Shown: positions 99 to 13,743 of the stretch, in pieces
How the letters are laid out: every line of letters starts with the position of its first letter
Position numbering within the stretch: the first letter of the stretch is position 1
Origin: Thecamonas trahens ATCC 50062
Taxonomy: Eukaryota > Protista > Apusomonadida
Reading direction: 5' to 3'
Length of the DNA: 21,701 nt
Assembly (NCBI RefSeq): GCF_000142905.1
Contig: NW_013657671.1
Coordinates: 428,797 to 450,497, forward strand
Notes under the pieces: generated by a model
Told to the model about the DNA's origin: nothing
Seen by the model: only the letters and a program-made list of their open reading frames with translations
Databases searched by the model: none
Position numbers and translations under genes: made by a program

Positions 99-1868
99 GT
101 GTTCGATGACGACGGCAATGGATCGATCGACACCAACGAGCTCCGTCAGGTGATGGTCAACATGGAGATGGATGTGGATGAGAAGCAGCTGCAGGAGATC
201 ATTGCCGAGGTGGACGAGGACAACTCGGGGACGATCGAGTTTGCCGAGTTTATGGTGCTGATGAAGAACGCCAAGACGTCCGGGTCGAAGATGGCTGCGG
301 TGGTGGAGAAGGCCGGAGACATGTACAAGGTGCAGGGTGCAACCGACTCGTCGGCACACTCGTTCTCGGAGGAGGAGAAGACCTCGTTCTCTGACTACAT
401 CAACATGGCGCTGGCGCACGACTCGGACCTCGCGCACCTGCTCCCGATCGACGCGGCGTCGATGGACCTGTTCGAGGTGGTCAAGGATGGCATTTTGCTG
501 TGCAAGCTGATCAACGAGGCCGTGCCCGGGACGATTGACGAGCGCGCCATCAACAAGAAGCCCAAGAACGCGTTCTCGCGGGCAGAAAACCTCAACATGG
601 CGGTGGCGTCTGCGGCAGCCATCGGCGTCAACGTGGTCAACCTCGGGCAGGACGACCTGACCTCGGGCAAGCACCACATTGTGCTCGGTCTCATCTGGCA
701 GCTCATCCGGATTGGGCTCATGCGCGCGATTAACCTCGAGGCGCACCCCGAGCTGTACCGGCTGCTCGAGGAGGGCGAGTCGATCGAGGACCTCATGCGG
801 CTGCCTGCCGACCAGATTCTTCTTCGGTGGCTCAACTACCATCTGGCGGCTGCCGGCTCGCCGCGTCGGGCGACCAACTTTGGCAAGGACCTGTCTGACT
901 CGGAGATCCTGACTACGGTGCTTGCGCAGGTCGGCCCGCCGTGTGACATGTCGCCGATGAACGAGAGTGACAAGCTCCGCCGCGCCGACGCCATGCTTGC
1001 CGAGGCCGACAAGATCGAGTGCCGCAAGTTTGTGACGCCCAACGACGTGACGTCGGGCAACTCGAAGCTCAACCTGCTGTTTGTGGCGAACCTGTTCAAC
1101 ACTCACCCCGGCCTCGCCGAGCTCACCGAGGAGGAGGCGCAGGAGATCGACATGGACTTTGACCTCGAGGGTGACCGCGAGGCTCGCGTCTTTGCGCTCT
1201 ACCTCTCCTCGCTTGGCGTCCCTGTCACTAACCTGTACGAGGACCTTCGCGACGGCCTCGCCCTGCTCAAGGCCTTTGATGCCGTCGAGCCAGGCATCGT
1301 CAACTGGAAGAAGGTGGCCACCAAGGTGCCCATCCGCCGCTTCTCGGCCATCGCCAACTGCAACTACGCTGTTGTTCTCGGCAAGTCGCTTCACTTTTCT
1401 CTTGTCGGCGTCTCGGGCGACAACATCAACGAGGGCGACCGCACCCGCACCCTCGCCGTCGTCTGGCAGCTCTGCCGCTTCCACCTGCTCAAGGTTCTCC
1501 GTGAGCTCGGCGGCGGCGCCAAGATCGAGGACGCCGACATGATCAAGTGGGCCAACGATACCGTCGGCGGCGTCTCGACCATGCGCGACTTCCGCGACAA
1601 GTCGCTCTCCAACGCCGTCTTCTTCCTCGACCTCATCAACGCCATCAAGCCCGGCATCGTCGAGGCCGAGTACGTCATCCGCGACGCCTCGTCCGAGGAG
1701 GACAAGACCAACAATGCACGCTACGCCATCGCCCTTGCCCGTAAGCTCGGTGCCCTCATCTTCCTCCTTCCCGAGGACGTCGTCGAGGTCCGCCCCAAGC
1801 TCATCCTCACCCTCGTCGGTACTCTCATGCAGGTTGCCAAGCGCGGCTCTGCCGGCCCGTCGGCCTAA
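99..1868 (+). CDS. SAC6: Fimbrin/plastin (actin-bundling protein), 3' exon of 589 codons: one EF-hand loop plus four calponin-homology (CH) domains. TAA stop at 1866-1868.
   Basis: The EF-hand loop DDDGNGSIDTNE fits DxDxNGxIxxxE. CH-domain signatures include DGILLCKLINEAVPGTIDERAINKK, LLRWLNYHL, ARVFALYLSSLGVPVTNLYEDLRDGLALLKAF and KWANDT...VFFLDLINAIKPGIVE. GC3 codon bias is strong. The frame enters from an upstream exon, and the first codon at 99 is GTG. Confidence 0.9.
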   Translation: MFDDDGNGSIDTNELRQVMVNMEMDVDEKQLQEIIAEVDEDNSGTIEFAEFMVLMKNAKTSGSKMAAVVEKAGDMYKVQGATDSSAHSFSEEEKTSFSDYINMALAHDSDLAHLLPIDAASMDLFEVVKDGILLCKLINEAVPGTIDERAINKKPKNAFSRAENLNMAVASAAAIGVNVVNLGQDDLTSGKHHIVLGLIWQLIRIGLMRAINLEAHPELYRLLEEGESIEDLMRLPADQILLRWLNYHLAAAGSPRRATNFGKDLSDSEILTTVLAQVGPPCDMSPMNESDKLRRADAMLAEADKIECRKFVTPNDVTSGNSKLNLLFVANLFNTHPGLAELTEEEAQEIDMDFDLEGDREARVFALYLSSLGVPVTNLYEDLRDGLALLKAFDAVEPGIVNWKKVATKVPIRRFSAIANCNYAVVLGKSLHFSLVGVSGDNINEGDRTRTLAVVWQLCRFHLLKVLRELGGGAKIEDADMIKWANDTVGGVSTMRDFRDKSLSNAVFFLDLINAIKPGIVEAEYVIRDASSEEDKTNNARYAIALARKLGALIFLLPEDVVEVRPKLILTLVGTLMQVAKRGSAGPSA

Positions 1869-2077
1869 CTGGTCGGCTTCACCCATCGTCGCCCCTCCTC
1901 CCCTGTCCTGCCGGCTTTGCTCTGACTGGCACCTGGACCTATCATCGTGGTAAAACCAACCAACCGTCCCACTGTTCGCTCGCCACTGGTTTGCATTGCA
2001 AGCCGACAGCCTGCCTGGCGCTGTCACCGCCGTACCAGCAACAGCCCACCAACCACCCCACTCCCCCCGCCGCCACC

Positions 2078-3208
2078 ATGGCCATCAAAGACGCATCCAC
2101 CTCCCGCCTCACCGCTTATGTGGCAGTGTGTGTGGCAGCCGGCCTGGCGTCAGTCGTGGCGTGCCTGGCTGTCCTTCTCCTCCGTGGCCGGCGTCTGCTC
2201 TCTTCGCCGCCGCGACGTGCGCTCGGTGCCCTGTTCGCGTGTGATCTGGCGGCTGCTCTTGGCCTGGTTGTTGCTGGGTGTATGTGGCTGACTCCCTCGC
2301 TCCGCTACGACTCAGCCTGCTACGTCCTCGGTGCATGGGTCTACGGCTGGTATCTGGCGAGTTTTGTATGGACGGGTGCCTTTGCCCTCGAGATGTATTG
2401 CCTCCTCTCGGTCCGCCCACAGGCATCGGCTGCCGCCCGTCGCTTTGTCATCGCCTGCCTGGTCTCGGTCACTGTTCCTGGCGGTCTGCTGGCGCTGGTC
2501 TGCATCCGCGCCGCGAACCAGCCGCCCGGCGCCGAAGTGCGCATCCATCACGGCGATCCGGACTCGTCGTGGTGCATGTGGGATCCACAGTCGTACTCGC
2601 TTGTCGAGATGCTCACCTTTTACGTCCCGCTCGCGCTGGCACTTGTTTGTGTCACGTGCCTCTACATCGCCATCAACCGTCGGCTCCGCTCAGCCATTGC
2701 CTCGTCTGGCATCGTGACCGACAAGGAGCGTGCCATGTCCAAGTCGGTCCGCACCTCATCGCTGCTCTACATCGGCATCTTTGTCCTCTGCTGGATGTTC
2801 TCGCTCGCGGCGGCAATTCTCAACAACATTGCCTACTTTTCGTCTCGCATCACTGGCAACGACCTCTTCCCGCTCTATCTTGCCATGGGTATCACTGCTC
2901 CCTCGCAGGGCTTTTTCAACGCCATCGTTTACGGCTTTGACGACTGCTGTGTAAGCGGAGCTCGGCGCCGCCGGCGCCGCCATGGTCGCGAGGCCGAAGC
3001 CCTCCTCTCCACCACCCCCACTGCAGGCTCGCCTTTTGTTGTTGCTCCTCTCTTTCGCTCCTCGGTTCAGGCCAACGACTCGTCGTCACACTTCCGGACA
3101 CACGTCCCTACGCCGGTGCACTACGGCGCCGGTTCGTCGCCGGGCCTCGCTACCAGCTCGTCGTTTGTGGCTGCATCGGGCGAGTCGTCGCTTGGGCGCA
3201 TGCGCTGA
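2078..3208 (+). CDS. Seven-transmembrane GPCR, cAMP-receptor-like (Dictyostelium cAR / fungal class V CRL family) candidate, 376 aa.
   Basis: ATG in a gccaccATGgcc context. The ORF-track start at 1991 is TTG. Seven hydrophobic helices: LTAYVAVCVAAGLASVVACLAVLLL, ALGALFACDLAAALGLVVAGCMW, CYVLGAWVYGWYLASFVWTGAFALEMYCLL, FVIACLVSVTVPGGLLALVCI, LVEMLTFYVPLALALVCVTCLYIAI, LLYIGIFVLCWMFSLAAAIL, LFPLYLAMGITAPSQGFFNAIVYG. The TM3 and TM6-TM7 patterns (CY..A.V.....FA.W......LE.Y ; F.LCW.F......I.N) resemble cAR1. Short N-terminus and Ser/Arg-rich C-tail. Confidence 0.75.
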   Translation: MAIKDASTSRLTAYVAVCVAAGLASVVACLAVLLLRGRRLLSSPPRRALGALFACDLAAALGLVVAGCMWLTPSLRYDSACYVLGAWVYGWYLASFVWTGAFALEMYCLLSVRPQASAAARRFVIACLVSVTVPGGLLALVCIRAANQPPGAEVRIHHGDPDSSWCMWDPQSYSLVEMLTFYVPLALALVCVTCLYIAINRRLRSAIASSGIVTDKERAMSKSVRTSSLLYIGIFVLCWMFSLAAAILNNIAYFSSRITGNDLFPLYLAMGITAPSQGFFNAIVYGFDDCCVSGARRRRRRHGREAEALLSTTPTAGSPFVVAPLFRSSVQANDSSSHFRTHVPTPVHYGAGSSPGLATSSSFVAASGESSLGRMR

Positions 3209-3215
3209 TGATCAG

Positions 3216-6200
3216 CTACACTGGCGAGTGCATGCCAAGCTTGGTGTTGAAGTCGAGGTACAGCCGCTTCTGCGCCTTGAAGAATGCGGCGCGGACTTTG
3301 CGCTTGATGACTTCGTCCCATATGACGACGGCGACGCCCCAGGAAACCAAAAAGGCCCACCAAAGCGGACTGACGCGCTCGAGGAGCGCCGTCTGCCAAA
3401 CACGGGCTGCCTCGATGAGCACCACTACACTGGCAACCAAGAGCCACGCTGGGTTCCGCCACGGAGCCACGACGCGCATCGAGTGGTAGTGGTGGTGGAA
3501 GACGGCCGATTCAACGAGTGCGAGCCAGACAAGAACCGTGACCACCGCGCCTGGTGCAGCGGCGGCTAGCGCGGTCCCGGCTGCAGCAGATGGTCCGACC
3601 CGCAAGGCGAGCTCTCGACTGATGGCACGAAGCTCTCGCGCGTGCCACCCGACGGTGTCGTTTTTGCGCGGAAGGAGCTTCATGATGCCCGGCGCCTCGG
3701 GCCCGGACATAAAGGCGAGAGAAACCAGTGGGACCACAAACCAGGCGATGTAGAGAACGGCCGCAGCCGAGACCTCGGCGCCAAGGCCAAGGCCGTAGAG
3801 GCCGACCACAACAAGCGCGACGAGCAGATGAAGCGCCACCGTGTACATGTAAAACGCCGAGACCAAGTCTTGGACCCGACGCCCCTCGCGGATGAATGGG
3901 AGCAGCATCTGGAGCTGAGTATCCTTGGGCGCCTTGAGCGAGCAGGGAAGCGTCGTCAGCGCCCGCGAGACGTCGTCCATGGACGCGTACGCGTGCATGA
4001 TCGACGGCGCCACCGCCCGCGCCGCGGCGGTCGTCGACTCGCGGTGGCGGAGGCAGCGGAGCGGAAGCGATGGCTCAACCGCCATAGCAATGTCTGACTG
4101 CGCAAAAATGGGCGAGTTAAAGTAGTTGAGCGCCGAGCCGAGACAGAAGACCACATCACCATACTCTTGGAAAATCTCCATCATTTGTCGCGATGCTGAA
4201 GGCGTGGCCTCAGAAAAGAGCGGTACAAGGAGCGGGACGTTGTCGACGTACTTGATATGGCTTCGCATCTCGGACACACCGCGTGGGAGTCGGGCCTTGA
4301 TCTCCGACATGCCGCGCGGGTCGTGCTCGACGTTCTCGACGGTCCGCTCCTGCAAGGTGATGCAGGTGTTAAAGTCGGTCTCGAGACCGAGCTTGTTGGC
4401 GAACGACTTCGAGATGCGCTCGTTGTCAGGCGAAAAGTAGACGAGCCGGATGCCGGCCGAGTTGAGCTCCTTCACCACGACGTCCATGTTCCGCTTGGGC
4501 TGCTCGGCCAGGTTGACGAGGCCGAGGAAAATCTGCCCACGGAGCAGTGTTCGCAGCCGGGCGCCGTACCCGCGCCGCGCTTGGGTCCCCGACGCAAGGA
4601 CGGCATACGAGCCGGCGCCGCGGCGGGTCGTCGAAGCCGCCCACTCGGCAAAGACAACGTCCGAGACGTCGGCAACGTCGGCGAGCCAGCTCGCGTCCGA
4701 GAGAACAGGCTTGTAGGCCATGCCAGTGGTGTGCCATCGGCCCCACTTTTGCGAGGTCTCCAGGATGCGTTCGCGGGCGGAGGGCGTTAGCTCGACAACT
4801 TGCGAGCCGTCAAAGGCCCACAGGCAGTGGGCCAGTACAAACTCAGGCGAGCCTTTGGTCATGACTTGCAGCTCGCCGTCGTCGTCAGCAACGACCGAGG
4901 CGTTGAGAAACGGCGCGGCCCACGACTTGTTCGTAGTCGAGCACCCGGGCAGCGCGTCGATGGCCTGCTGCGCCTTGGCGAAAAGCATGACCTCGTACTT
5001 GCGGGTGTAGACGGCCGGGACGGCATCGGTGAAGCCAATTTGCTGGGCAAGGAGGCACATGCACGCCCGGCCCGACTCGGCCGAGTTGAGCCGCTTCTGG
5101 TACGCGGTGAGCCAGCGAAGTCGGTCGTCGACGGTCGATGCGAGCAGCGGCGAGTCACAGAGCGGATTGAGAAGAGCAGCGAGGCCGAGCGGCTTCAGCG
5201 AGGTCATGAACGACGGCCAGTCGGCCTCGACAAATCGGAGCTCGTACTGCGCCTGCCGCCCGGTGTGGAGGTGCGATCGCAGCGGTTCTGCAGCTTCGGC
5301 CTCCTCCACCGAGCCGCCCGAGCCCACAGCCGGGCCGGCAGCAACAACGACGCCGGACGTGGCCCGGACCGAGACACCGTCGCCGACGTCCAAAACCGCG
5401 CCACCCGTCGAGGCCGCGGGCGAGAGCGCGGCAGCCCATGTCTCGGCAAATGTCATTGGGACATCCTCACCCTCGGTGACGACGCCGGCTTGCCCAGCGG
5501 ATGGCACCTGTGGAGCAAGGGTGAGGACGTGGTGCTCGGCGGTCGGCGCGAGAAAGAAGACCTTGTCGACAAGAAGCGACGGCCGCGAGATGACGCCCGA
5601 GCCGTCGACGCAGCAGAGGACCGTTGTGTCGCCGAGCGTGTACAGGAGATTGGTAGTCCGCGCGAGGCCGAGGCCGCGGCCCGAAACATACTTCCAGAAT
5701 GAAGCCCATAGGAGCGAGAGCGGGAGCAGGGCTCGTTTGCGGGTAAAGAGCATGTCGCGCGAGTGGCGGATGGCAAACTCGTCGTCGAACTCGTCCATCT
5801 CGGACGAGCCGAGCTCGTTGAACTGGTCCGACGAGATGTCAAACTCAAGGTCAGACGACTTGAACTCTGACGAGTTGGAGTTGAGCGCAACGTCTTCGGT
5901 CGACGACGACGATGATGATGATGACGACGACGACGAGAAGAGCGGCGACGCCGCAAGCGACTCGTTGAGCTGGGTGATTTGCTTGAGCAGGTCAAAAATG
6001 AGGTGGAGCCGGGCGTTGCCATAAGCGGTGACCACAAAGACCGGAAGCGATGAGACAACAAGGGCAAGCACGACGTAGACTTGACGAAGGACGAGGATCT
6101 CGAGCCAGTCGATGAGCGCGCGCGGTTGTGTGCCCACAATGATCCAGGTAATGTTGGCGGCGGCGGCAAGCGCGACGAGGACAAGTGCAACGTTGTTGTA

Positions 6201-7799
6201 GTACTTGCGGCCGAGGCGGAGTCGGGTCATGAACGGCGCCTCGCGGCGTGGGACCTTGGGTGGCTCGGCTGTTACAACCTTGCGCTCGGGTGGCGCAAAG
6301 GTGAGCGTGCTGAGCATGTCGCCGTCGGGCCCGGCCGAGGTGGCGTCAGCGGCAGTCGATGCCGGGTCGATAGCCTGTGACGCCGACTCGAGGCCGGTCA
6401 CCATAGGCGCGATGTCGGCGAGCGAGACAACGCCCGAGTCAGGAACAGGCTCGGACGCAAGAACCGAGGCGTCATCAGACGCAGCAGTAGGCGGGCCGGT
6501 GGGAAGGTCGGCGATCGGGAGCTCGTCAGGCGTGATGAGCGACGGGAGTGCAGCCGCAAAGAGGCGTGCGCCGCTAGCCACCGACATGGCCGACGCGACG
6601 GCGTGGGTCTGGGCGTCGTTAAAGCCGCGCGGGCGGGCAGATCGAGAAGAGAGCGGCGAGAGGACGTCGGAGGAGAACGACGAAGACGACGATAGTGACG
6701 AGAGCGACTGTGGAGGCGGGCCATCGGCAGCCTCAAGTGAGAGCGCATCGTCAGCGTCGTCAACGTGGAGCAGATCGGCGACGAGGTCGTCATCGGCCTC
6801 TTGCTCCTGCTGCTCCTCGAGTGGTTGACGTGGGTGCAAGCGCGAGTGCGGGCGCGAGTGCGGGCCATCAGCGGCCTCGCGAGCGAGCGCGTCGTGTGGG
6901 TGGGTGGCGAGCGCCGAGAGCTCTTCCTGCTGCTCGAACGAGTCACTCGCTGGTGACGGGTGGTCGGGCCCGAGGTTGGCGGCCTCGAGCGCGCGGCGGC
7001 GGTGGGCGCGGTCGAGGAAGAATATGTTCGTGTTGGCCGGCATGCAAAGGGCCACGTCGAGAGTCTTGGTGACCGGGGTGGCGGCGAGACGGAAGCGAGC
7101 ACGACCGCCGAGAGCATGGATGGCCGACTTGTGCTCGTGGCTCGGATCGACGGCGTAGGGGCGAGCCGGTTGATCGGCGGGTGGGTCTGCCACACAGTCG
7201 CAGGGCAGGAGATCTTTGAGCGGTTCGCCTTCTGCAAGCTCAAACCCAACCGATCGAGCGTATATGACCGAGGCAGCCGCCGGGGCACGCTGGCCAAGTT
7301 CCAGCTCGATGACGTCGCCGGCCACGAGGAGATCAGGCGGGAGTGAGCGCCAAGCGTGGTCACGCAGCGCTGTGATGCGGGTCTTGGACTCTGTGCGCGG
7401 GGCATCAATGTGGGCGGCTTCGTCGACGTAGTACCCACGTGAGGCGGCAAGGGCGGCGATCTGGCGCATAACTCTGCAGCGCATCTCGTTGGCTCCGCAA
7501 AACTCGTCCCATGCCTCGACTGCGACGTTGACAACAGCGCCAACAAGTACGGTTGCGGTCTCGAGGCCAAGCTGCATGCCACGGCCCCCAAGCGCCCAGA
7601 TTGCGGCCATGATGACGGCCAAGGCTGCGAGGGCGATGTTCATGGGCGAGGCGGCAGCAGCAGCGAGCGCAGCGGCGAGTGTGATCGGTGGCGGCAACAT
7701 CCGCTCCATGGTCCCGACTAGCTGCGCGTTTGCAGTCAGCGTCCGCGGCGAACGCTGCGGTAGGCCGATGGCCGCGTGACAATGCGGTGCATCGGTCAT
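3216..7799 (-). CDS. P2-type (SERCA-like) P-type ATPase homologue with degenerate catalytic motifs, a probable pseudo-pump (possibly TMEM94-like). Open ORF 3216-8369; first ATG at 7799.
   Basis: Aligned by eye to the SERCA core. TM1/TM2 are followed by an actuator-domain-like LVAGDVIELELGQRAPAAASVI (cf. LVPGDIV.L..GD.VPAD). TGES is replaced by AEGE. The phosphorylation loop TLGDTTVLCCVDGSGVIS aligns with TLGSVTVICSDKTGTLT: the Asp is kept, and KTGT becomes GSGV. KGAPE is KGSPE. FLGLVNLAEQPKRNMDVVVKELNSAGIRLVYFSPDNERIS aligns with FVGVVGMLDPPRKEV...DAGIRVIMITGDNKGTA. The hinge VAMTGDGVNDAPAL becomes VFCLGSALNYFNSPIF. The C-terminal part carries multiple TM helices. The ORF-track start at 8369 is TTG. 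The 190 codons upstream of the first ATG are Pro/Ser low-complexity, overlap a CT-rich promoter-like tract and are treated as 5'UTR. Confidence 0.8.
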   Translation of the reverse strand: MTDAPHCHAAIGLPQRSPRTLTANAQLVGTMERMLPPPITLAAALAAAAASPMNIALAALAVIMAAIWALGGRGMQLGLETATVLVGAVVNVAVEAWDEFCGANEMRCRVMRQIAALAASRGYYVDEAAHIDAPRTESKTRITALRDHAWRSLPPDLLVAGDVIELELGQRAPAAASVIYARSVGFELAEGEPLKDLLPCDCVADPPADQPARPYAVDPSHEHKSAIHALGGRARFRLAATPVTKTLDVALCMPANTNIFFLDRAHRRRALEAANLGPDHPSPASDSFEQQEELSALATHPHDALAREAADGPHSRPHSRLHPRQPLEEQQEQEADDDLVADLLHVDDADDALSLEAADGPPPQSLSSLSSSSSFSSDVLSPLSSRSARPRGFNDAQTHAVASAMSVASGARLFAAALPSLITPDELPIADLPTGPPTAASDDASVLASEPVPDSGVVSLADIAPMVTGLESASQAIDPASTAADATSAGPDGDMLSTLTFAPPERKVVTAEPPKVPRREAPFMTRLRLGRKYYNNVALVLVALAAAANITWIIVGTQPRALIDWLEILVLRQVYVVLALVVSSLPVFVVTAYGNARLHLIFDLLKQITQLNESLAASPLFSSSSSSSSSSSSTEDVALNSNSSEFKSSDLEFDISSDQFNELGSSEMDEFDDEFAIRHSRDMLFTRKRALLPLSLLWASFWKYVSGRGLGLARTTNLLYTLGDTTVLCCVDGSGVISRPSLLVDKVFFLAPTAEHHVLTLAPQVPSAGQAGVVTEGEDVPMTFAETWAAALSPAASTGGAVLDVGDGVSVRATSGVVVAAGPAVGSGGSVEEAEAAEPLRSHLHTGRQAQYELRFVEADWPSFMTSLKPLGLAALLNPLCDSPLLASTVDDRLRWLTAYQKRLNSAESGRACMCLLAQQIGFTDAVPAVYTRKYEVMLFAKAQQAIDALPGCSTTNKSWAAPFLNASVVADDDGELQVMTKGSPEFVLAHCLWAFDGSQVVELTPSARERILETSQKWGRWHTTGMAYKPVLSDASWLADVADVSDVVFAEWAASTTRRGAGSYAVLASGTQARRGYGARLRTLLRGQIFLGLVNLAEQPKRNMDVVVKELNSAGIRLVYFSPDNERISKSFANKLGLETDFNTCITLQERTVENVEHDPRGMSEIKARLPRGVSEMRSHIKYVDNVPLLVPLFSEATPSASRQMMEIFQEYGDVVFCLGSALNYFNSPIFAQSDIAMAVEPSLPLRCLRHRESTTAAARAVAPSIMHAYASMDDVSRALTTLPCSLKAPKDTQLQMLLPFIREGRRVQDLVSAFYMYTVALHLLVALVVVGLYGLGLGAEVSAAAVLYIAWFVVPLVSLAFMSGPEAPGIMKLLPRKNDTVGWHARELRAISRELALRVGPSAAAGTALAAAAPGAVVTVLVWLALVESAVFHHHYHSMRVVAPWRNPAWLLVASVVVLIEAARVWQTALLERVSPLWWAFLVSWGVAVVIWDEVIKRKVRAAFFKAQKRLYLDFNTKLGMHSPV
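5902..5937 (-). repeat. (GAY)12 trinucleotide repeat on +. It encodes a run of 13 serines inside the ATPase homologue (sense strand TCR).
   Basis: gacgacgacgatgatgatgatgacgacgacgacgag, read as ...FSSSSSSSSSSSSSTEDV in the minus-strand ORF. Confidence 0.8.
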
Positions 7800-8070
7800 C
7801 GAGTTGCTTTGCAGCGGCGGCAGAGTGGGCGGCGGGTCGGGCAAGTTGGTAGCCGACGGCAGCTGATGGGCAGTAGCGGCCAGGATGTCGGACGCGGCCT
7901 GCAGGACCGATCGCGGAGTGCGGGGCACAGACGCCACTTTGGGCGAGTTAGCTCGGACTGGCGACGATGCGTCTGGAATGACAGCAGCGACGATGGGTGC
8001 CACCGTGGTCGACGCCGACCGTGAGAGAGTGGCGCCTGGGGGCGGTGGGGTGGGGGCGATGGCAAGGGAA

Positions 8071-8140
8071 AGGGAGGAGGAAGAGGAGGAGGAAGAAGAA
8101 GAGGAGGTGGGGGCGGTGGGGGGCGGTGGGGGCGGTGGGT
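8071..8140. repeat. Purine-rich (GAG/GAA)n tract followed by a (GGTGGGGGC)n G-run array, a G-quadruplex-prone motif on + (C-rich on the sense strand of the minus-strand genes).
   Basis: agggaggaggaagaggaggaggaagaagaagaggaggtggg, then ggcggtggggggcggtgggggcggtggg: at least four G3+ runs with 1-3 nt loops. Confidence 0.6.
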
Positions 8141-8249
8141 AGCTCCTCCATGGCCCGGGGTTTGGCGGGGAGTAGAGTGGAGTGGGGTGCGGTCGGCTGG
8201 GGTGAGGTGCTGCGGTGGCGACGAGTGTGAGTCTGAGGAGGGTAGGAAA

Positions 8250-8266
8250 GGGGGGGGGGGGGGGGG
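8250..8266. repeat. G17 homopolymer (poly-C on the sense strand of the downstream minus-strand gene).
   Basis: Direct reading: aaagggggggggggggggggatgatg. Confidence 0.9.
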
Positions 8267-8431
8267 ATGATGAAGAGGTGTGGTATGTATTAGGAGTGCC
8301 AGACTGTGGTTGTGAGAAGGATCGGATCAGAGGGGCGCGTAGTGACGGCGGGCAAGGCGGGCAGGGCAAGGCGGGCAGGGCGGGGCTGCAGCCTGATGGC
8401 GAGGAGGAGGGGGGGGTGGGGGGTGGACAGG

Positions 8432-9245
8432 TTATGTCGAGGGCGACTGCTTGGCGTGCTTGTAGTAGGTCTTGTTGTAGCGCGGATTGGTTCGCATCAG
8501 GTGCTGGGCGAGCCAGTTGATGGGGTTGATGGGCTTGACGTTGGCCACGCCGGCGTTGCGCTTCTGGGCATTGGAGGCGAGTGCCTTGAGGAGGGCCTCG
8601 ACGGCAGCATCGAGAACCGGGTAGACGGACTCTTCAAGAAACTCGTCGTCGGTGTTTGTGCGCGGATTAACGGCGACGACAGGCATGATGTCCTTTTCGC
8701 GGAGGACGTTGATGGAAGGTCGGCGGGCGAGGCGGGACGAGAGCAGCTGCAGTCGCTGCCTTTTCTCCAACCGCTTCTGGGCCTCCAGATGCGAGGGCGA
8801 GAGCTTGTTGGCCGGCATGATGTTGGACTCTTGCAGCTTTTCCATGGACGGGCGCGTCCGAAACGTCCGCTTGAGGCGAGCCTGAATGCGTGATCGCACC
8901 AGAGCCTTCTGCCGCTCGAGCACTGCTGCCGACACGTCACCACGCTGCAGAATGTTTCTCGAGATAAGATCATCTCGTTTCATTCGGCGCACGAGTTTGT
9001 GTTCCAGCGCTGCGTGATGATGGTGACGGTGATGTGAGTGTGAGACGTCGCGCTCTGCCACACCGATCGCTTCTTCCTCTCTTTCTCTCCCTCTTCCCGC
9101 CCCCCTACCTGCCCTGCTCGTCTTGAAGCATTCCTTCCCATGACGTACCTTGTGAGATGGACGATAGCGCCACCGGATGGCCACCATCGTGTTCCTCCGA
9201 CTTTCCGCTGGACCCACTGCCCGAGTCCGAGTACGAGTACGAGCC

Positions 9246-9663: not shown

Positions 9664-10410
9664 GCCGTCGATCCGCCTACTCTCGATCCATCGGCTCTCG
9701 ATGACCGGTCCGCCTACTCTCGATCCATCGGCTCTCGATGACCGGCCCACCTACTCTCGATCCATCGGCCGTCGATGACCGGTCCGCCTACTCTCGATCC
9801 ATCGGCTCTCGATGACCGGCCCGCCTACTCTCGATCCATCGGCTCTCGATGACCGGCCCGCCTACTCTCGATCCATCGGCCGTCGATGACCGGTCCGCCT
9901 ACTCTCGATCCATCGGCTCTCGATGACCGGCCCACCTACTCTCGATCCATCGGCCGTCGATGACCGGTCCGCCTACTCTCGATCCATCGGCTCTCGATGA
10001 CCGGCCCGCCTACTCTCGATCCATCGGCCGTCGATGACCGGTCCGCCTACTCTCGATCCATCGACTCTCGATGACCAGCCCGCCTACTCTCGATCCATCG
10101 ACTCTCGATGACCGGTCCGCCTACTCTCGATCCATCGGCTCTCGATGACCGGCCCGCCTACTCTCGATCCATCGGCCGTCGATGACCGGCCCGCCTACTC
10201 TCGATCCATCGGCTCTCGATGACCGGCCCGCCTACTCTGGATCCATCGGCTCTCGATGACCGGCCCGCCTACTCTCGATCCATCGGCTCTCGATGACCGG
10301 CCCGCCTACTCTGGATCCATCGGCTCTCGATGACCAGCCCGCCTACTCTCGATCCATCGGCTCTCGATGACCGGTCCGCCTACTCTCGATCCATCGGCCG
10401 TCGATGACGG
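9664..10410. repeat. Minisatellite of a 37-bp unit in about 20 tandem copies: cgcctactctcgatccatcggctctcgatgaccggyc. Variants pair ctct with ccgt and ggcc with ggtc, and some copies carry a ctggatcc or accagcc variant.
   Basis: Unit starts recur every 37 nt from 9674 to 10377. The unit contains an internal ~18-bp half-repeat (tctcgatCCATCGGc / tctcgatGACCGGc). A 37-bp period is not a multiple of 3, so it is non-coding. It lies in the divergent region between the RPEL/Dpy-30 gene and the HPt gene. Confidence 0.95.
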
Positions 10411-10775
10411 CATCGGCATCGACCATGCCAAAAGCAGACACAAAGGGTATACGACGGCGCACAAATGGCAGTATCGGCATCGTTCGATGCAGGCCGACGG
10501 CAAGCGGCAAGACAGGCGAGCGGAAGCAATTGGGACACACCATGAGCAATAACAGTTTCGGGGGGAGCAAAGCCAACCAAAAGGCGAACCCAATTTGTGC
10601 CGCACCCTCTCACACCCGCCACCTACCCACACACCACCTTGACAAGTCTTCTGTGACCACCTCACCTCTCCATACGGTTCCACACCCCAAGTGTTTCACT
10701 GACACATATATACATACATACAGCCGTTTACATACTCTGAATCTGGCGAGTGTTGCAGAGTCCGTCCCACACTTA

Positions 10776-10795
10776 CTCTCTCTCTCTTTGGTCTG

Positions 10796-10836
<41 letters not shown>

Positions 10837-10850
10837 CACACACACACACC
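10776..10850. repeat. Compound microsatellite (CT)6...(CT)17 cg (CA)7, about 20-95 bp upstream of the HPt gene ATG.
   Basis: ctctctctctctttggtctgtccctctctctctctctctctctctctctctctctcgcacacacacacacac. Confidence 0.95.
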
Positions 10851-10870
10851 TGTTGTGGCCCACCATCATC

Positions 10871-12437
10871 ATGTCGGTCGCGTTTGAGGTCGAGTCCATG
10901 TTGGCTCTCTTCGGCTCACAGACAGGAAAACGTACGTTGTGGTGAGGATTGTGCGGTCATGGACAGAACTCCGCTGGTACTTGGGCACTCACGTACACAC
11001 GCACCACTTGCACGGGATACTCACAACCGCAATTACCCTCACACACGCCTGCGCACACACACGCCCTGATGAACATGATCGATGTGGCGCCGAGCGATGA
11101 TAGTGGTGCATCTGCTGGTTCAGTTTGTCAACAATTCGGACAGATACCTCGCTGATTGCGAGACTAGCATCGCGGTAGATACACCCGAGGCGCTCAAAGC
11201 CTTTCGTGCGGCGGCGCATACACTCAAGGGATCAGCTGGGACTGTTAAGGCTACTCGCCTCTATCCGCTTGTTCTGTGTCTGTCGGATGTTGCAAAGCAC
11301 TCGCCATTCCCTCAGCCGCCGGTTGTGGTGGAGCTCCTCCGCCAAGCCCGCGCCGAGCATCATCGCCTCAAGGCCTACGCTGCCTGCCTGGAAGCTGCAT
11401 CATCTCCGGACTTTGACGCTTCCAACGAGGCTGCCAAGGCGGCGACGCTGTTGGCCCCGGTTTCTAGTGCTGCTATGGCTCGCCCGAGCAAGACCAAGGC
11501 CAAGCTCAACGAGCTCATCACTGTTCTCGAGGGGACCAAGGAGGTCGGTGACGTCATTAATGTCGTCGAACGCATCGGTCGCGAGCTCGACGCTCCGTTC
11601 ATCACCGTCATTCCCGAGGCCTACCGCTCGATCACGAGCATGGCTATGGAAAAGTCGCGCATGGCCTTTGACACCATGCACCGCGGCTTGCTCGACGAGG
11701 CTGCCGCCGCCCTCGAGTACATCGACGCTGGCGGCTTTGGCGTAGGCACGTCGACCGCCCACAGTGCTTCGTCGTCGACCTCGTCGGACTCGCCCTCGTA
11801 CTCGTACTCGTACTCGTACTCGTCCGACGCGCGGGCCAAGGCCAAAGCCCGCAAAAAGGCAAAGGAAAAGGCCAAGGCCAAGGAGAAGGCCAAGAAAGCG
11901 GCAAAGGACAAGGCAAAGGCAAAGGCAAAGGCAGAAGCCAAGAGCAAGGCCAAGAGCAAGGCCAAGAGCAAGGCCAAGAGCAAGGCAAAGTCAAAGGACA
12001 AGGCCAGGGCCAAGGACAAGACAAAGAGCAAGGGTCGCGATGCGCCTGATGGAGTCGCTGGCGCCAGTACTGGTACAACTGCTAGTGCTGTCGACTCGGC
12101 GGAACTCGACTACGACGAGGTTGTGGCGCGGTTTGGCGGCTCGGCCGAGTTTGCCAACGAACTGCTTGGAGAGTGGATCAAGTCACATGCCAGCGGCATC
12201 AGCGGCCTCGCTGAGGCTCTAGCCAGCGACGATGTGGCCGCCATCAAGAGCATCGCGATTGCCATCGAGGGCGAGGTCTCGATGCTCTCAATGCCGGTTC
12301 TGGCCAAGGCGGCGCAGACCGTGAGGAATGCGTGCGAGTCAGGCGAGATTGATGCCATCCGCCGGTGCTGCAACGATTTCAATGAGACCTTTACTGCAGT
12401 CGCTGCCGCCCTTGCCGCGCGCGGTATCACTCCTTGA
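10871..12437 (+). CDS. Histidine-phosphotransfer (HPt, Ypd1-like) domain protein carrying a second, His-less HPt-like domain and a Lys/Ala-rich linker. Long ORF 11082-12437; proposed 5' exon 10871-10931 with intron 10932-11103.
   Basis: HPt signature AAAHTLKGSAGTVKATRL (H.LKGS..G), with the His codon cat at 11217-11219, preceded by LVQFVNNSDRYLADCE (cf. Ypd1 LIIQFIDQAQTTFAQMQ). C-terminal residues ~330-451, FGGSAEFANELLGEWIKS...DDVAAIKSIAIAIEGEVSMLSM..., match the HPt helix layout but have Ala/Ile where the His would be. Proposed exon 1: catcatcATGTCG... encoding MSVAFEVESMLALFGSQTGK, ending in phase 1 before GTACGT (10932-10937). Branch CTGAT at ~11065; acceptor gatag|tg at 11103. Splicing yields ...GSQTGKLVHLLVQFVNN, which resembles the Ypd1 helix A/B segment (FSKGLIIQFIDQA). 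TGA stop at 12435-12437. Confidence 0.7.
11796..12012 (+). repeat. Coding low-complexity repeats inside the HPt gene: (TCGTAC)4, encoding SYSYSYSYS, then a Lys/Ala-rich region that includes a 12-bp repeat (gccaagagcaag) of 4-5 copies at 11937-11996.
   Basis: tcgtactcgtactcgtactcgtactcg at 11796-11822. The AKAKARKKAKEKAKAKEK...AKSKAKSKAKSKAKSKAKSKDKARAKDK segment comes from aaggc[c/a]aag variants. Confidence 0.85.
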
Positions 12438-13743
12438 GCCGCGTCGGCGGCGCATCGCGATCGCAGGTGCCGTGACCGGTATCCGCCGAGTGCTCGTCGT
12501 CATCGTCGTCCAGGTCCGACGTCGACTCGGAGTGCCACCAGGCGTCTGGTTCACCGTCTGCCTTGCCACTGGCACCGCCGTCTGCGTCGCTCATGTGCTC
12601 CACGGGCGCATGGTTGTGGCGGCGGATGCGTCGCCGCGGCGCGCTGTGCGATTGGTGCTTGCGCCGATGCCGTCGCCGCCGCCGCCGGTGATGCCGGGTG
12701 TGAACCGCGTCGTGGCTCTGCTCGCCGTCAAACACGTCATCGACACTCGTCACTGCCGCCCACTTGGCCCGAAGCGCGGTAAAATCCACAGACCGTGTGT
12801 CTTCAGGCCCGAGCGAGATGTTGGCCTTGACGGATTCCTTCCGTCGTCCGCCCGGCGACGCCGATGAGTGCTGCGACCGGAGTCGGGTGATAGACCGCTT
12901 CTTGCCGGCCAGTGGCGACGAACGAGTCGGGACATGCTTGGCTGCATTCAACGCGGCCGCGACTGCGCCAGCTTCTGGTAGTGCCTCTGAACCGGCCGTC
13001 GAGCTTGCGCCGACATCGTTCGAGGCGTGTGCGGGCGATGCGCCGACCGACGCAGCAGCAGCCGCAAGTGCCGCTTGGGCTCGCTTGGCCGACGCGTCTG
13101 CGAGCGAGGTCCGGATGGCCATCGACGACGAGCGATGCTTCAGCTGGCGGAGGCGGATTGGCGACTGCGACGAGAGCGGTGCGGCCGAAAGCGATTTGGG
13201 CGTCAGCGGCTCAGGCGGCTCGTCGTCAGAGCCGGCCACCGCCGCCGCAGTCTCGGACGAGTCGAGCACCGAGCGCAGCTCGTAGACTGCGTACGTCGAG
13301 TTGAGGTGCGAGGGGAAGAAGAGGTCACTGGCAGCCGGGCAGGTGAACGGGGCCGGCACGTCAAGTAAGTGGATCTCGATGGGTGTGCCGTTGAGCGCCG
13401 AGTACACAACGGTAAACGCAGGGAAGGAGACAATGATGAACGGGTACGAGAGTGCAAAGTGCATTGGCGTCGATCGCCAGTGCATGGTGTGCCGGGCGGC
13501 GGCGAGGCTTGCCGGCGACGTCCGCAGCGAGGCGTCAACGGCCCACGGCAGAATCTCGCCATGACTCTCGTAGCATACCAGCCAGGCGCCAGGGAGCTCG
13601 TAAGCAGCGAGCGGTGGGTGTCCGGATGGCGAGGCGGCGACAGTGTGGAGACCCCAGAGCTGGTGTCGATGAGCACTAGCGCAGCTGCGCCCTCGGGCGC
13701 AAGAATGCCGACAAGGATGCCAACCGAGGTGAGCGAAAGGCAT
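12427..13743 (-). CDS. ORF of unknown function. It is either a separate small gene, likely starting near the Met codons at ~13440, or a 3' continuation of the upstream RapGAP gene. The C-terminus is His/Arg/Asp-rich.
   Basis: The stretch MHWRSTPMHFALSYPFIIVSFPAFTVVYSALNGTPIEIHLLDVPAPFTCP...YAVYELRSVLD has strong GC3 bias and a hydrophobic N-segment. The tail HTRHHRRRRRRHRRKHQSH...DLDDDDDEH is low-complexity. The first ~60 codons of the listed ORF overlap the end of the RapGAP ORF in another frame, have weak GC3 bias and are probably non-coding. No homolog recognised. Confidence 0.35.
   Translation of the reverse strand: MPFAHLGWHPCRHSCARGRSCASAHRHQLWGLHTVAASPSGHPPLAAYELPGAWLVCYESHGEILPWAVDASLRTSPASLAAARHTMHWRSTPMHFALSYPFIIVSFPAFTVVYSALNGTPIEIHLLDVPAPFTCPAASDLFFPSHLNSTYAVYELRSVLDSSETAAAVAGSDDEPPEPLTPKSLSAAPLSSQSPIRLRQLKHRSSSMAIRTSLADASAKRAQAALAAAAASVGASPAHASNDVGASSTAGSEALPEAGAVAAALNAAKHVPTRSSPLAGKKRSITRLRSQHSSASPGGRRKESVKANISLGPEDTRSVDFTALRAKWAAVTSVDDVFDGEQSHDAVHTRHHRRRRRRHRRKHQSHSAPRRRIRRHNHAPVEHMSDADGGASGKADGEPDAWWHSESTSDLDDDDDEHSADTGHGTCDRDAPPTRLKE

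What the first reader, a model, noticed from the sequence alone, without database searches (positions are those of the whole stretch)
3216..7799. SERCA-like P-type ATPase homologue with degenerate catalytic motifs, a candidate pseudo-pump
The fold-defining segments align with SERCA-type pumps residue by residue: the PEGLP-region proline, the loop TLGDTTVLCCVDGSGVIS versus TLGSVTVICSDKTGTLT, KGSPE versus KGAPE, and FLGLVNLAEQPKRN...AGIRLVYFSPDNERIS versus F.G.VGMLDPPRKEV...DAGIRVIMITGDNKGTA. The residues needed for catalysis are changed, though. DKTGT becomes DGSGV (the Asp is kept; the Lys/Thr that bind ATP/Mg are lost). TGES becomes AEGE, DPPR becomes EQPKR, TGDN becomes SPDN, and GDGVNDAP becomes GSALNYFNSP, which loses both Mg-coordinating Asp. 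There is also an ~80-aa acidic/poly-Ser insertion between the TM4-like helix and the phosphorylation loop. This looks like a non-catalytic or unconventional P-type ATPase relative, possibly the fungal counterpart of TMEM94-like proteins.
Basis: partly seen in the sequence, partly recalled or inferred. Interest (0 to 1): 0.7.

Follow-up and report, generated by a model that had tools for sequence, protein, structure and literature searches.

The report
TMEM94/ERMA orthologue of Thecamonas trahens

Summary
The TMEM94 guess is right. Human and mouse TMEM94/ERMA are the best solved-structure sequence hits (E about 1e-57, against 3e-3 for any classical pump). A family profile matches TMEM94 full length (E = 0) and SERCA1 in five colinear stretches (1e-35). 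AlphaFold models of both halves hit human TMEM94 first, then SERCA.

Two corrections. The organism is the apusomonad Thecamonas trahens, not a fungus: the neighbouring fimbrin gene is 100% identical to its protein. The degenerate motifs are mostly family-wide (GSxxNxxN for GDGVND, FSxxN for TGDN, no TGES), in relatives from animals, early fungi, Amoebozoa, CRuMs and a diplonemid.

Lineage-specific features:
- Loss of the Lys after the conserved Asp (DGSGV). The closest relative has DYSGI, and about 20 of 117 representatives lack K/R here.
- A changed TM4 kink.
- Very long disordered insertions.

The protein keeps 55 of 58 near-invariant family positions, so it is a functional gene. Whether the family pumps Mg2+ or is a non-catalytic pseudo-pump is disputed in the literature. 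The sequence favours no canonical phosphoenzyme cycle. It is a new member of a known kind, of modest interest.

The parts
3216..7799 (-). Complete CDS of the TMEM94/ERMA-like protein: 1527 aa plus the stop at 3216-3218.
   Evidence: Uninterrupted ORF. GC3 is 0.65-0.97 throughout. The N-terminal helix and the C-terminal FNTKLGMHSPV both match the family termini.
7440..7742 (-). N-terminal helix (residues 20-34) plus TM1 and TM2 (about 53-71 and 76-94, extended to 119).
   Evidence: AF2 N-half pLDDT is 80-94 for residues 20-125. Hydropathy peaks. Starting at the later ATGs (7709, 7700) would remove the conserved helix.
7020..7400 (-). A (actuator)-like domain core. It holds LLVAGDVI (7308-7331; D162 corresponds to human D196) and the EGEP loop (7221-7232) at the TGES-loop position.
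   Evidence: Family column D108/109. The loop column is G76 followed by E35/Q27/D23. AF2 predicts beta strands at 142-178 and 233-238. Weak Pfam E1-E2_ATPase hit at residues 139-179.
6222..6911 (-). About 230-aa low-complexity insertion between the A-like domain and TM3, predicted disordered. It is lineage-specific and the longest in the family sample.
   Evidence: pLDDT below 50 for residues 297-526. D162 to N549 spacing is 387, against a family median of 126.
5949..6212 (-). TM3 and TM4. The TM4 kink reads A579-L-VVSS-L-P586-V-F (6036-6065), where the family has P-L-L-P-L-L and human has PILP.
   Evidence: P586 aligns to human P327/P337 and SERCA P308. The position of SERCA E309 is V587.
5775..5948 (-). 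Poly-Ser/acidic linker, ending in the family-conserved acidic motif MDEFDDEF.
   Evidence: pLDDT below 50 for residues 623-654. The D-E-F-D columns are D65 E44 F60 D54.
5586..5639 (-). Phosphorylation-loop equivalent TLGDTTVLCCVDGSGVIS. D732 corresponds to SERCA D351 and human D417/D427. The Lys is replaced by Gly.
   Evidence: Asp is present in 112/116 family members and K/R in 100/115. The closest relative has DYSGI.
4545..5576 (-). N (nucleotide-binding)-like domain, with a disordered insert and KGSPE (4842-4856).
   Evidence: Colinear match to TMEM94 CTD3 and to the SERCA KGAPE region. AF2 beta/alpha core pLDDT is 80-95.
3900..4544 (-). C-terminal half of the P-like domain:
- EQPKR (4491-4505; DPPR equivalent)
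- FSPDN (4422-4436; TGDN equivalent)
- family signature LPRGVSEMRSHIKYVDNVPLLV (4224-4289)
- GSALNYFN (4116-4139; GDGVND equivalent)
   Evidence: L1171, P1172, G1174, H1181, D1186 and P1189 are invariant in 118/118. G1221 is in 115 and S1222 in 97 of 118.
3219..3899 (-). TM5-TM10 and the long cytosolic end of TM10, finishing in the family C-terminal motif FNTKLGMHSPV (3219-3251).
   Evidence: Profile match to SERCA 737-992. AF2 helices at pLDDT 85-95. Family motif F-x-T-K-L-G-M-[H43/N35]-S-P.

Best explanation
The gene encodes the Thecamonas trahens orthologue of TMEM94 (also called ERMA). This is an ancient eukaryotic offshoot of P2-type (SERCA-like) ATPases.

Shown: it keeps the whole pump architecture (10 TM helices, A-, P- and N-like domains, a proline kink in TM4).

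Shown: it lacks most of the chemistry that makes a P-type ATPase turn over.
- The two Mg2+-site aspartates of GDGVND are Ser and Tyr.
- The motif-III Lys position is Ser.
- The Lys of DKTGT is Gly.
- The acidic and polar ion-site residues of TM4, TM5 and TM6 are hydrophobic, or His at the N768 position.

Shown: it is under purifying selection as a family member.

Inferred: it does not run a canonical Post-Albers aspartyl-phosphate cycle, and it does not bind a bare divalent cation at a SERCA-like site. More likely the pump scaffold serves as a ligand-binding, regulatory or non-canonical transport module of the ER membrane. Candidate functional elements are the nearly invariant Asp (D732), the TMEM94-specific LPxG..R.H....DNVPLLV segment and the C-terminal KLGM[H/N]SP.

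The degenerate motifs are the family norm, not decay of this particular gene. My confidence that it is a TMEM94 family member is about 0.95. My confidence in the 'no canonical phosphoenzyme cycle' mechanism is about 0.6. The 0.7 given as the overall confidence is a blend of these two.
For: Identity:
- phmmer against PDB puts TMEM94/ERMA at 1e-57 to 4e-57 in five colinear stretches, with the next-best classical pumps at 3e-3.
- The family profile hits TMEM94 at E = 0 (about 1300 bits, full length) and SERCA1 at 1e-35.
- Full HMMER against 1.84 billion representatives finds 301 relatives at E <= 1e-30. Named ones include 'transmembrane protein 94' of fish and amphioxus.
- AF2 C-half has pLDDT 75.6 and pTM 0.78. 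By Foldseek it is closest to human TMEM94 (E 5e-41, TM 0.59), then SERCA (1.5e-20, TM 0.45). The N-half also hits TMEM94 first.

Functional gene:
- 1527 codons without a stop, coding-like GC3, and 55 of 58 near-invariant family positions kept.

Chemistry:
- Family columns and SERCA mapping give D703 to S1222, D707 to Y1226, K684 to S1203, K352 to G733, E309 to V587, E771 to V1327 and D800 to V1356.
- About 20 of 117 family representatives lack D-[KR], and 4 lack the Asp itself. That is unlike true P-type ATPases, where DKTGT is invariant.

Literature:
- Purified human TMEM94 showed no ATPase activity, no Mg2+ binding and one conformation under six Post-Albers-mimicking conditions (PMC12134183).
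Against: A rival group reports ATP-dependent Mg2+ uptake by reconstituted human ERMA, abolished by D427N (PMC13322241). The equivalent Asp is kept here and in 112/116 relatives, which argues that the site still matters.

T. trahens keeps several canonical residues that human TMEM94 has lost:
- K982 of KGSPE (SERCA K515)
- D1125 and N1126 of SPDN (SERCA D627 and N628)
- possibly the Gly-Glu of TGES
- S1123 at the HAD motif-II position

A residual or unconventional phosphotransfer is therefore not excluded. There is no expression, localisation or activity data for this organism.
Confidence: 0.7

Rival explanations
1. It is an active, non-canonical ATP-driven Mg2+ pump of the ER, as proposed for human ERMA. 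The conserved Asp would be the phosphoryl acceptor, Mg2+ would bind at the unwound TM4 and a polar TM5 residue, and ATP would bind at a membrane-proximal site.
For: - The Asp (D732) and the A-domain GD (D162; human D196) are conserved.
- A TM4 proline kink is kept (P586).
- The TM5 position of human Q1110 (SERCA N768) is polar (H1324), and His can ligate metals.
- The position of human D702 is D972.
- Functional data for human ERMA: PMC13322241.
Against: Of the residues whose mutation impaired human ERMA, several are not kept here:
- P334 is A579, with a 4-aa insertion.
- K1101 is A1315; the family column is Q51/N19.
- Q1110 is H1324; the family column is Q20/S18/H16/C11.
- K1266 is H1439; that column is variable.
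- The DKQGI Lys is Gly.

Other points:
- The human 'GMN' motif is GMH here and in 43 of about 100 relatives.
- There is no Mg2+-coordinating Asp in the P domain.
- An independent group found no ATPase activity or Mg2+ binding (PMC12134183).
Confidence: 0.25
2. It is a decaying pseudogene or an assembly or annotation artefact of a once-canonical SERCA-type pump.
For: Catalytic motifs are degenerate. There are very long low-complexity insertions. The exact protein is not found in the 15-billion-protein collection under seven alternative starts.
Against: - A 4.6-kb ORF without stops or frameshifts.
- Coding GC3 throughout.
- 55 of 58 family-invariant residues retained.
- The same 'degenerate' residues are conserved across more than 100 distant lineages.
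- The closest relative, from an independent sample, shares the same peculiarities: DYSGI, GMH, and Ser-rich/DEFD linker.
Confidence: 0.02
3. It is a canonical, catalytically competent P-type ATPase (P2 or P5) and the reader's alignment is simply wrong.
For: None, beyond weak sub-threshold Pfam hits to E1-E2_ATPase, Hydrolase and Cation_ATPase_C.
Against: No DKTG, GDGxND, TGES, DPPR or TGDN anywhere in the protein. Profile alignment to SERCA places the degenerate motifs exactly at the canonical positions. No P5 ATPase appears among the PDB hits.
Confidence: 0.01

Closest known systems
Human/mouse TMEM94 (ERMA), PDB 9JJK, 9JK3, 9YWQ, 9YYD
   Same: - Full-length colinear homology (E 1e-57; family profile E = 0).
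- Same predicted fold (Foldseek E 5e-41).
- 10 TM helices plus A-, P- and N-like domains.
- Asp kept in the phosphorylation loop.
- GSxxN in place of GDGVND, FSxxN in place of TGDN, and no TGES.
- The LPRG..R.H..DNVPLLV signature and the C-terminal KLGMxSP.
- A long linker between TM4 and the P domain.
   Different: - Only about 22-30% identity.
- DGSGV instead of DKQGI: the Lys is lost.
- TM4 reads A-L-VVSS-L-P instead of PILP.
- H1324 for Q1110, A1315 for K1101, and GMH for GMN.
- Retains KGSPE and SPDN, which are closer to canonical pumps than human HGSAD and SLED.
- About 230-aa and about 50-aa extra disordered insertions.
- A shorter N-terminal segment.
SERCA1a and other P2-type ATPases
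   Same: Overall architecture and order of all landmark segments. The profile E-value to SERCA1 is 1e-35. Retained residues are the phosphorylation-site Asp, a TM4 helix-breaking Pro, R751 (R1307), K515 (K982), D627 and N628 (D1125, N1126) and N706 (N1225).
   Different: - Lacks K352, T355, G626, K684, D703 and D707.
- Lacks the TGES Thr and Ser, or the whole loop.
- The Ca2+-site residues are V587 (E309), H1324 (N768), V1327 (E771), A1352 (N796), V1355 (T799) and V1356 (D800).
- One extra residue before the Asp (CCVD against CS-D).
Closest relative P0001 (unidentified eukaryote, SRA run SRR30952584, 1494 aa)
   Same: 39-43% identity. It shares DYSGI (Lys also lost), RGSPD, FSPEN, GSNRNFFN, KLGMHSP, a Ser-rich linker with IDEFDEDF, and a large A-domain to TM3 insertion (312 aa).
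   Different: Organism unknown. Its TM4 reads P-LLFW-P. Its N-terminal extension is longer.

Membership tests
TMEM94/ERMA family | Best, full-length, colinear sequence similarity to TMEM94 rather than to any classical P-type ATPase. | tested here: met
   TMEM94 at 1e-57 against 3e-3 for Na,K/H,K-ATPases; the family profile containing the query hits TMEM94 at E = 0.
TMEM94/ERMA family | P-type-ATPase-like fold (10 TM; A-, P- and N-like cytosolic domains) that is closest to TMEM94 structures. | tested here: met
   AF2 models. Foldseek against PDB gives TMEM94 at 5e-41 (TM 0.59), ahead of SERCA at 1.5e-20.
TMEM94/ERMA family | Family-specific motifs: GS[SA]LNxxN in place of GDGVND, FSxxN in place of TGDN, LPxGxxxxRxHxxxxD[ND]VPLLV, and C-terminal FxTKLGM[HN]SP. 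| tested here: met
   GSALNYFN, FSPDN, LPRGVSEMRSHIKYVDNVPLLV and FNTKLGMHSPV are all present.
TMEM94/ERMA family | D-[KR]-x-G phosphorylation-loop variant (human DKQGI). | tested here: inconclusive
   Asp and Gly are kept, but the Lys/Arg is Gly (DGSGV). About 17% of family representatives also lack K/R, so this is not a strict family requirement.
TMEM94/ERMA family | ER-membrane localisation and an effect on ER Mg2+ content. | not testable with these tools
   Known only for mammalian cells (PMC13322241), and disputed (PMC12134183).
Canonical P-type ATPase (P2A, SERCA-like) | Invariant DKTGT phosphorylation motif. | tested here: not met
   DGSGV at 732-736. No DKTG anywhere.
Canonical P-type ATPase (P2A, SERCA-like) | GDGxNDxP hinge motif with two Asp residues for Mg2+ and phosphoryl transfer. 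| tested here: not met
   GSALNYFNSP: D703 is S1222 and D707 is Y1226.
Canonical P-type ATPase (P2A, SERCA-like) | TGES dephosphorylation loop in the A domain. | tested here: not met
   No TGE[SN]. The positional equivalent is LAEGEPL, where at best Gly-Glu is kept.
Canonical P-type ATPase (P2A, SERCA-like) | Acidic or polar ion-coordinating residues in TM4, TM5 and TM6 (E309, N768, E771, N796, T799, D800). | tested here: not met
   V587, H1324, V1327, A1352, V1355 and V1356.
Canonical P-type ATPase (P2A, SERCA-like) | Formation of an aspartyl-phosphate intermediate and ATP hydrolysis. | not testable with these tools
   Needs biochemistry.
HAD-superfamily phosphotransferase core | Motif I nucleophile Asp, motif II Ser/Thr, motif III Lys, and motif IV acidic pair. 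| tested here: not met
   Motif I Asp is present (D732) and motif II Ser is present (S1123). Motif III Lys is absent (S1203; R1204 is adjacent). The motif IV acidic pair is absent.

The most novel reading that the evidence does not exclude
The comparison across more than 100 lineages, to which this apusomonad protein adds a clear case, may show that TMEM94 is an ancient pseudo-ATPase clade. It is found at least in Amorphea, CRuMs and Discoba, so it may date to the last eukaryotic common ancestor.

The residues the Mg2+-ATPase model relies on are evolutionarily dispensable: the DKxG Lys, human P334, K1101, Q1110, K1266 and the 'GMN' motif. A different set is invariant: D732, H1181, D1186 and the C-terminal KLGMxSP. 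That invariant set would define the real functional site. The site could be a non-ATPase ligand- or lipid-handling or regulatory site.
Probability: 0.35. Interest if true: 0.6.

Novelty: new member of a known kind. Interest (0 to 1): 0.3.

Why it matters
TMEM94/ERMA is a human disease gene whose biochemical activity is in open dispute: Mg2+-pumping P-type ATPase, or a non-catalytic P-type-ATPase-like protein.

A deeply diverging orthologue from the sister lineage of Opisthokonta shows which features have survived long divergence: the Asp, the GSxxN hinge, the LPxG..H..DNVPLLV block and the C-terminal KLGMxSP. It also shows which have not: the Lys next to the Asp, the first TM4 proline, human K1101, Q1110 and K1266, and the Asn of 'GMN'.

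That gives a ready list of residues to mutate, and an intronless, naturally 'Lys-less' variant to test for ATPase or Mg2+-transport activity. As a genome feature it is otherwise an ordinary member of a known family.

Tried and rejected
1. Word-indexed homology searches failed. The full protein found nothing, and the C-terminal 468 aa found a single fragment. Low-complexity words probably swamped the candidate list. The exhaustive HMMER search solved this.
2. Pfam hits (Hydrolase, E1-E2_ATPase, Cation_ATPase_C) are all below the gathering thresholds, so Pfam alone would not have classified the protein.
3. Exact look-ups found nothing. I tried the protein with seven alternative start codons, two neighbouring ORFs and the T. 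trahens fimbrin in the contig index. I could therefore not see the public gene model or its annotation.
4. I considered an upstream extension. The ORF is open to 8369, but that stretch has no in-frame ATG. It is Pro/Ser-rich with GC2 above GC3. A Dpy-30-like gene ends at about 8432. I treat it as 5' UTR. An upstream spliced exon cannot be excluded.
5. I considered the downstream ATGs at 7709 and 7700. I rejected them because they would delete the conserved, confidently modelled N-terminal helix.
6. I considered a P5-type or other subfamily affinity. I rejected it because only P2-type pumps follow TMEM94 in the sequence and fold searches.
8. Literature searches for TMEM94 in fungi or protists found nothing relevant. 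The 2024 Mol Cell ERMA paper is not held. I did not try to open the Cell Calcium critique; I know it only through its citation in PMC12134183.
Full report
**What is in the sequence**

The minus strand of the window carries an ORF open from 8369 to the stop at 3216-3218. The first in-frame ATG is at 7799, which gives a 1527-aa product.

- TLGDTTVLCCVDGSGVIS at residues 721-738
- KGSPE at 982-986
- FLGLVNLAEQPKRN...AGIRLVYFSPDNERIS at 1091-1130
- GSALNYFNSP at 1221-1230
- AEGE at 189-192
- a TM4 proline at 586

A regular-expression scan finds no DKTG, GDGxND, TGES, DPPR or TGDN anywhere else in the protein.

GC3 stays at 0.65-0.97 along the whole CDS. The 190 in-frame codons upstream of 7799 contain no ATG, are Pro/Ser-rich and have GC2 above GC3. 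A Dpy-30-like gene ends at about 8432. I therefore take 7799 as the start. An upstream spliced exon cannot be excluded without RNA data.

**What it is**

- Pfam gives only sub-threshold hits to Hydrolase, E1-E2_ATPase and Cation_ATPase_C.
- A phmmer search of all PDB sequences is decisive. The three top hits are mouse and human TMEM94, also deposited as 'Endoplasmic reticulum magnesium-transporting P-type ATPase', at E = 1e-57 to 4e-57. They match in five colinear stretches from the A-like domain to the last residue. The best classical pumps (Na,K- and H,K-ATPases, SERCA, MgtA) reach only 3e-3 or worse.
- An exhaustive HMMER search of 1.84 billion cluster representatives with the C-terminal 844 aa finds 1050 relatives at E <= 1e-3 and 301 at E <= 1e-30.
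- A profile of the query plus 40 of these relatives matches the TMEM94 structures full length (E = 0, about 1300 bits). It matches SERCA1 at 1e-35 in five colinear pieces. Those pieces include LGsvTvlCcvDkeGilS against LGCTSVICS-DKTGTLT, the KGAPE region, the DPPR/TGDN region and TM5-TM10.
- AlphaFold2 models were made of residues 546-1527 (pLDDT 75.6, pTM 0.78) and of residues 1-760 (pLDDT 61; confident in TM1-2, the A-like domain and TM3-4). Both hit human TMEM94 first in a Foldseek search of the PDB (E 5e-41, TM 0.59; and 4e-6), followed by SERCA and other P2 pumps.

**Whose gene it is**

The neighbouring ORF at 99-1868 is 100% identical to fimbrin of Thecamonas trahens ATCC 50062. This organism is an apusomonad (Apusozoa), not a fungus.

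Named relatives of the TMEM94-like protein come from many groups:
- fish ('transmembrane protein 94') and amphioxus ('transmembrane protein 94-like')
- the ichthyosporean Chromosphaera
- early-diverging fungi: Sorochytrium, Lobosporangium, Neoconidiobolus, Ambispora, Tieghemiomyces
- Amoebozoa: Polysphondylium, Heterostelium, Planoprotostelium
- CRuMs: Rigifila, Diphylleia
- the diplonemid Lacrimia

The family is therefore old and widespread. I found no paper discussing it outside animals. The exact T. trahens protein is not in the 15-billion-sequence collection under any of seven start codons. The closest sequence (P0001, 39-43% identity) comes from an unidentified eukaryote in SRA run SRR30952584.

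**Which degeneracies are family-wide and which are local**

I aligned 117 representatives of at least 1000 aa with the query and counted residues at the key columns.

Family-wide features:
- The GDGVND position is G(115) S(97) [S/A] L N(71) x x N(106), so both Mg2+-site aspartates are gone everywhere.
- The TGDN position is F(114) S(105) x [E/D] N.
- The SERCA K684 column is T/I/V.
- The TGES-loop position is L-x-x-G(76)-[E35/Q27/D23].
- Published cryo-EM work on human TMEM94 describes the same substitutions: DKQGI, GSSANL and no TGES (PMC13322241; PMC12134183).
- The phosphorylation-loop Asp is present in 112/116, followed by K or R in 100/115.
- The family has its own invariant block, LPxG..R.H....D[ND]VPLLV, with six positions at 118/118.
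- The C-terminus is strongly conserved: F-x-T-K-L-G-M-[H43/N35]-S-P.
- The query keeps 55 of the 58 positions that are at least 90% conserved. That argues for a functional gene, not a pseudogene.

Features specific to this lineage:
- The Lys after the Asp is Gly (DGSGV). P0001 has DYSGI. About 20 of 117 representatives lack D-[KR], and four lack the Asp itself.
- The TM4 kink reads A-L-VVSS-L-P, where the family has P-L-L-P and human has PILP.
- There are two long, predicted-disordered insertions. The first is residues about 297-526: the D162 to N549 spacing is 387 against a family median of 126, the largest in the sample. The second is a poly-Ser/acidic stretch at about 618-668: the TM4-Pro to Asp spacing is 146 against a median of 94.

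Conversely, T. trahens keeps a few canonical residues that human TMEM94 lacks:
- K982 in KGSPE (SERCA K515)
- D1125 and N1126 in SPDN (SERCA D627 and N628)
- possibly Gly-Glu in EGEP at the TGES position

For the last point, HMMER instead treats SERCA's TGES as an insertion, so 'TGES becomes AEGE' remains uncertain.

**Ion site**

I mapped SERCA's Ca2+ ligands through the profile alignment and a pairwise alignment of TM5-6.

| SERCA residue | T. trahens residue |
|---|---|
| E309 | V587 |
| N768 | H1324 |
| E771 | V1327 |
| N796 | A1352 |
| T799 | V1355 |
| D800 | V1356 |

No acidic ligand remains in TM4, TM5 or TM6.

**How it most likely works**

Two published views exist for the human protein.
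- Venkatesan et al. 2026 (PMC13322241) report ATP-dependent Mg2+ uptake by reconstituted ERMA. Uptake is lost in D427N and impaired by P334V, K1101A, Q1110A/L, K1266A and other mutations. They concede that no nucleotide or phosphoenzyme was seen and that the canonical pocket is occluded.
- Li et al. 2025 (PMC12134183) found no ATPase activity, no Mg2+ binding, a single conformation under six conditions and a buried phosphatidic-acid-like lipid. They argue against classifying the protein as a P-type Mg2+-ATPase.

The T. trahens sequence speaks to this dispute.
- Kept, of the residues reported as important in human ERMA: D427 (D732), D196 (D162), D702 (D972) and P337 (P586).
- Not kept: P334 (A579), the DKQGI Lys (G733), K1101 (A1315; family column Q/N), Q1110 (H1324; family column Q/S/H/C/Y), K1266 (H1439; variable column) and the Asn of 'GMN' (His, as in 43 of about 100 relatives).

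The HAD motif III Lys and motif IV aspartates are also absent family-wide. My best reading is therefore that this protein does not run a canonical Post-Albers phosphoenzyme cycle, and that it uses the pump scaffold for a non-canonical role: ligand or lipid binding, regulation, or an unconventional transport mechanism. This step is inference, and I put it at about 0.6. The near-invariance of the Asp means the site is not simply dead, so the non-canonical Mg2+-pump model keeps about 0.25.

**Novelty and verdict**

The TMEM94 attribution is correct. The 'fungal' attribution is wrong, and the implication that the degeneracy is special to this protein is wrong. It is a new member of a known kind.

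Its modest value is comparative. It is an apparently intronless, deeply diverging, naturally Lys-less orthologue that helps separate conserved from dispensable residues in a disputed human disease protein. Interest: 0.3.

Noticed in passing
window 3206-3218: The convergent neighbour, a Dicty_CAR-like 7TM receptor ORF (1991-3208, + strand), has its stop codon only 7 bp from the stop codon of the TMEM94-like gene (3216-3218, - strand). Their 3' UTRs must overlap.
   Followed up: partly
window 9673-10408: A 37-bp unit repeated about 20 times in tandem (93% matches, score 1283), in the region between the Dpy-30-like ORF and the ORF at 10404-11069.
   Followed up: no
window 99-1868 (+): Fimbrin/plastin gene (EF-hands plus 4 CH domains), 100% identical to Thecamonas trahens ATCC 50062 fimbrin. 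This identifies the source organism.
   Followed up: yes
window 16690-20211 (-): A 1173-aa ORF that combines Sushi (SCR) repeats, a TNFR/ELAPOR1-like module, DUF7630 and a TRP-channel-like membrane region. This is an unusual domain mix for a protist.
   Followed up: no
window 8432-9217 (-), 11082-12437 (+), 13676-16366 (-): Other neighbours: a Dpy-30-motif protein, an Hpt (histidine phosphotransfer) domain protein with an AAAGGC-type hexamer repeat (11855-12031), and a Rap/Ran-GAP protein. All are long single ORFs, consistent with an intron-poor locus.
   Followed up: no
window 7800-8369 (-) and 8350-8381: The region upstream of the start codon stays open in frame for 190 codons. It is extremely Pro/Ser-rich (poly-CCN/TCN) and has no ATG. 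It is probably a C-rich 5' UTR or promoter rather than coding sequence.
   Followed up: partly
family alignment (query residues 1171-1192, 669-672 and 1517-1526): Three TMEM94-specific blocks are conserved from the diplonemid to vertebrates and have no counterpart in classical pumps:
- LPxG..R.H....D[ND]VPLLV, with six positions invariant in 118/118
- a linker D-E-F-D motif, which is lost in vertebrates
- the extreme C-terminal FxTKLGM[H/N]SP

Their function is unknown.
   Followed up: partly
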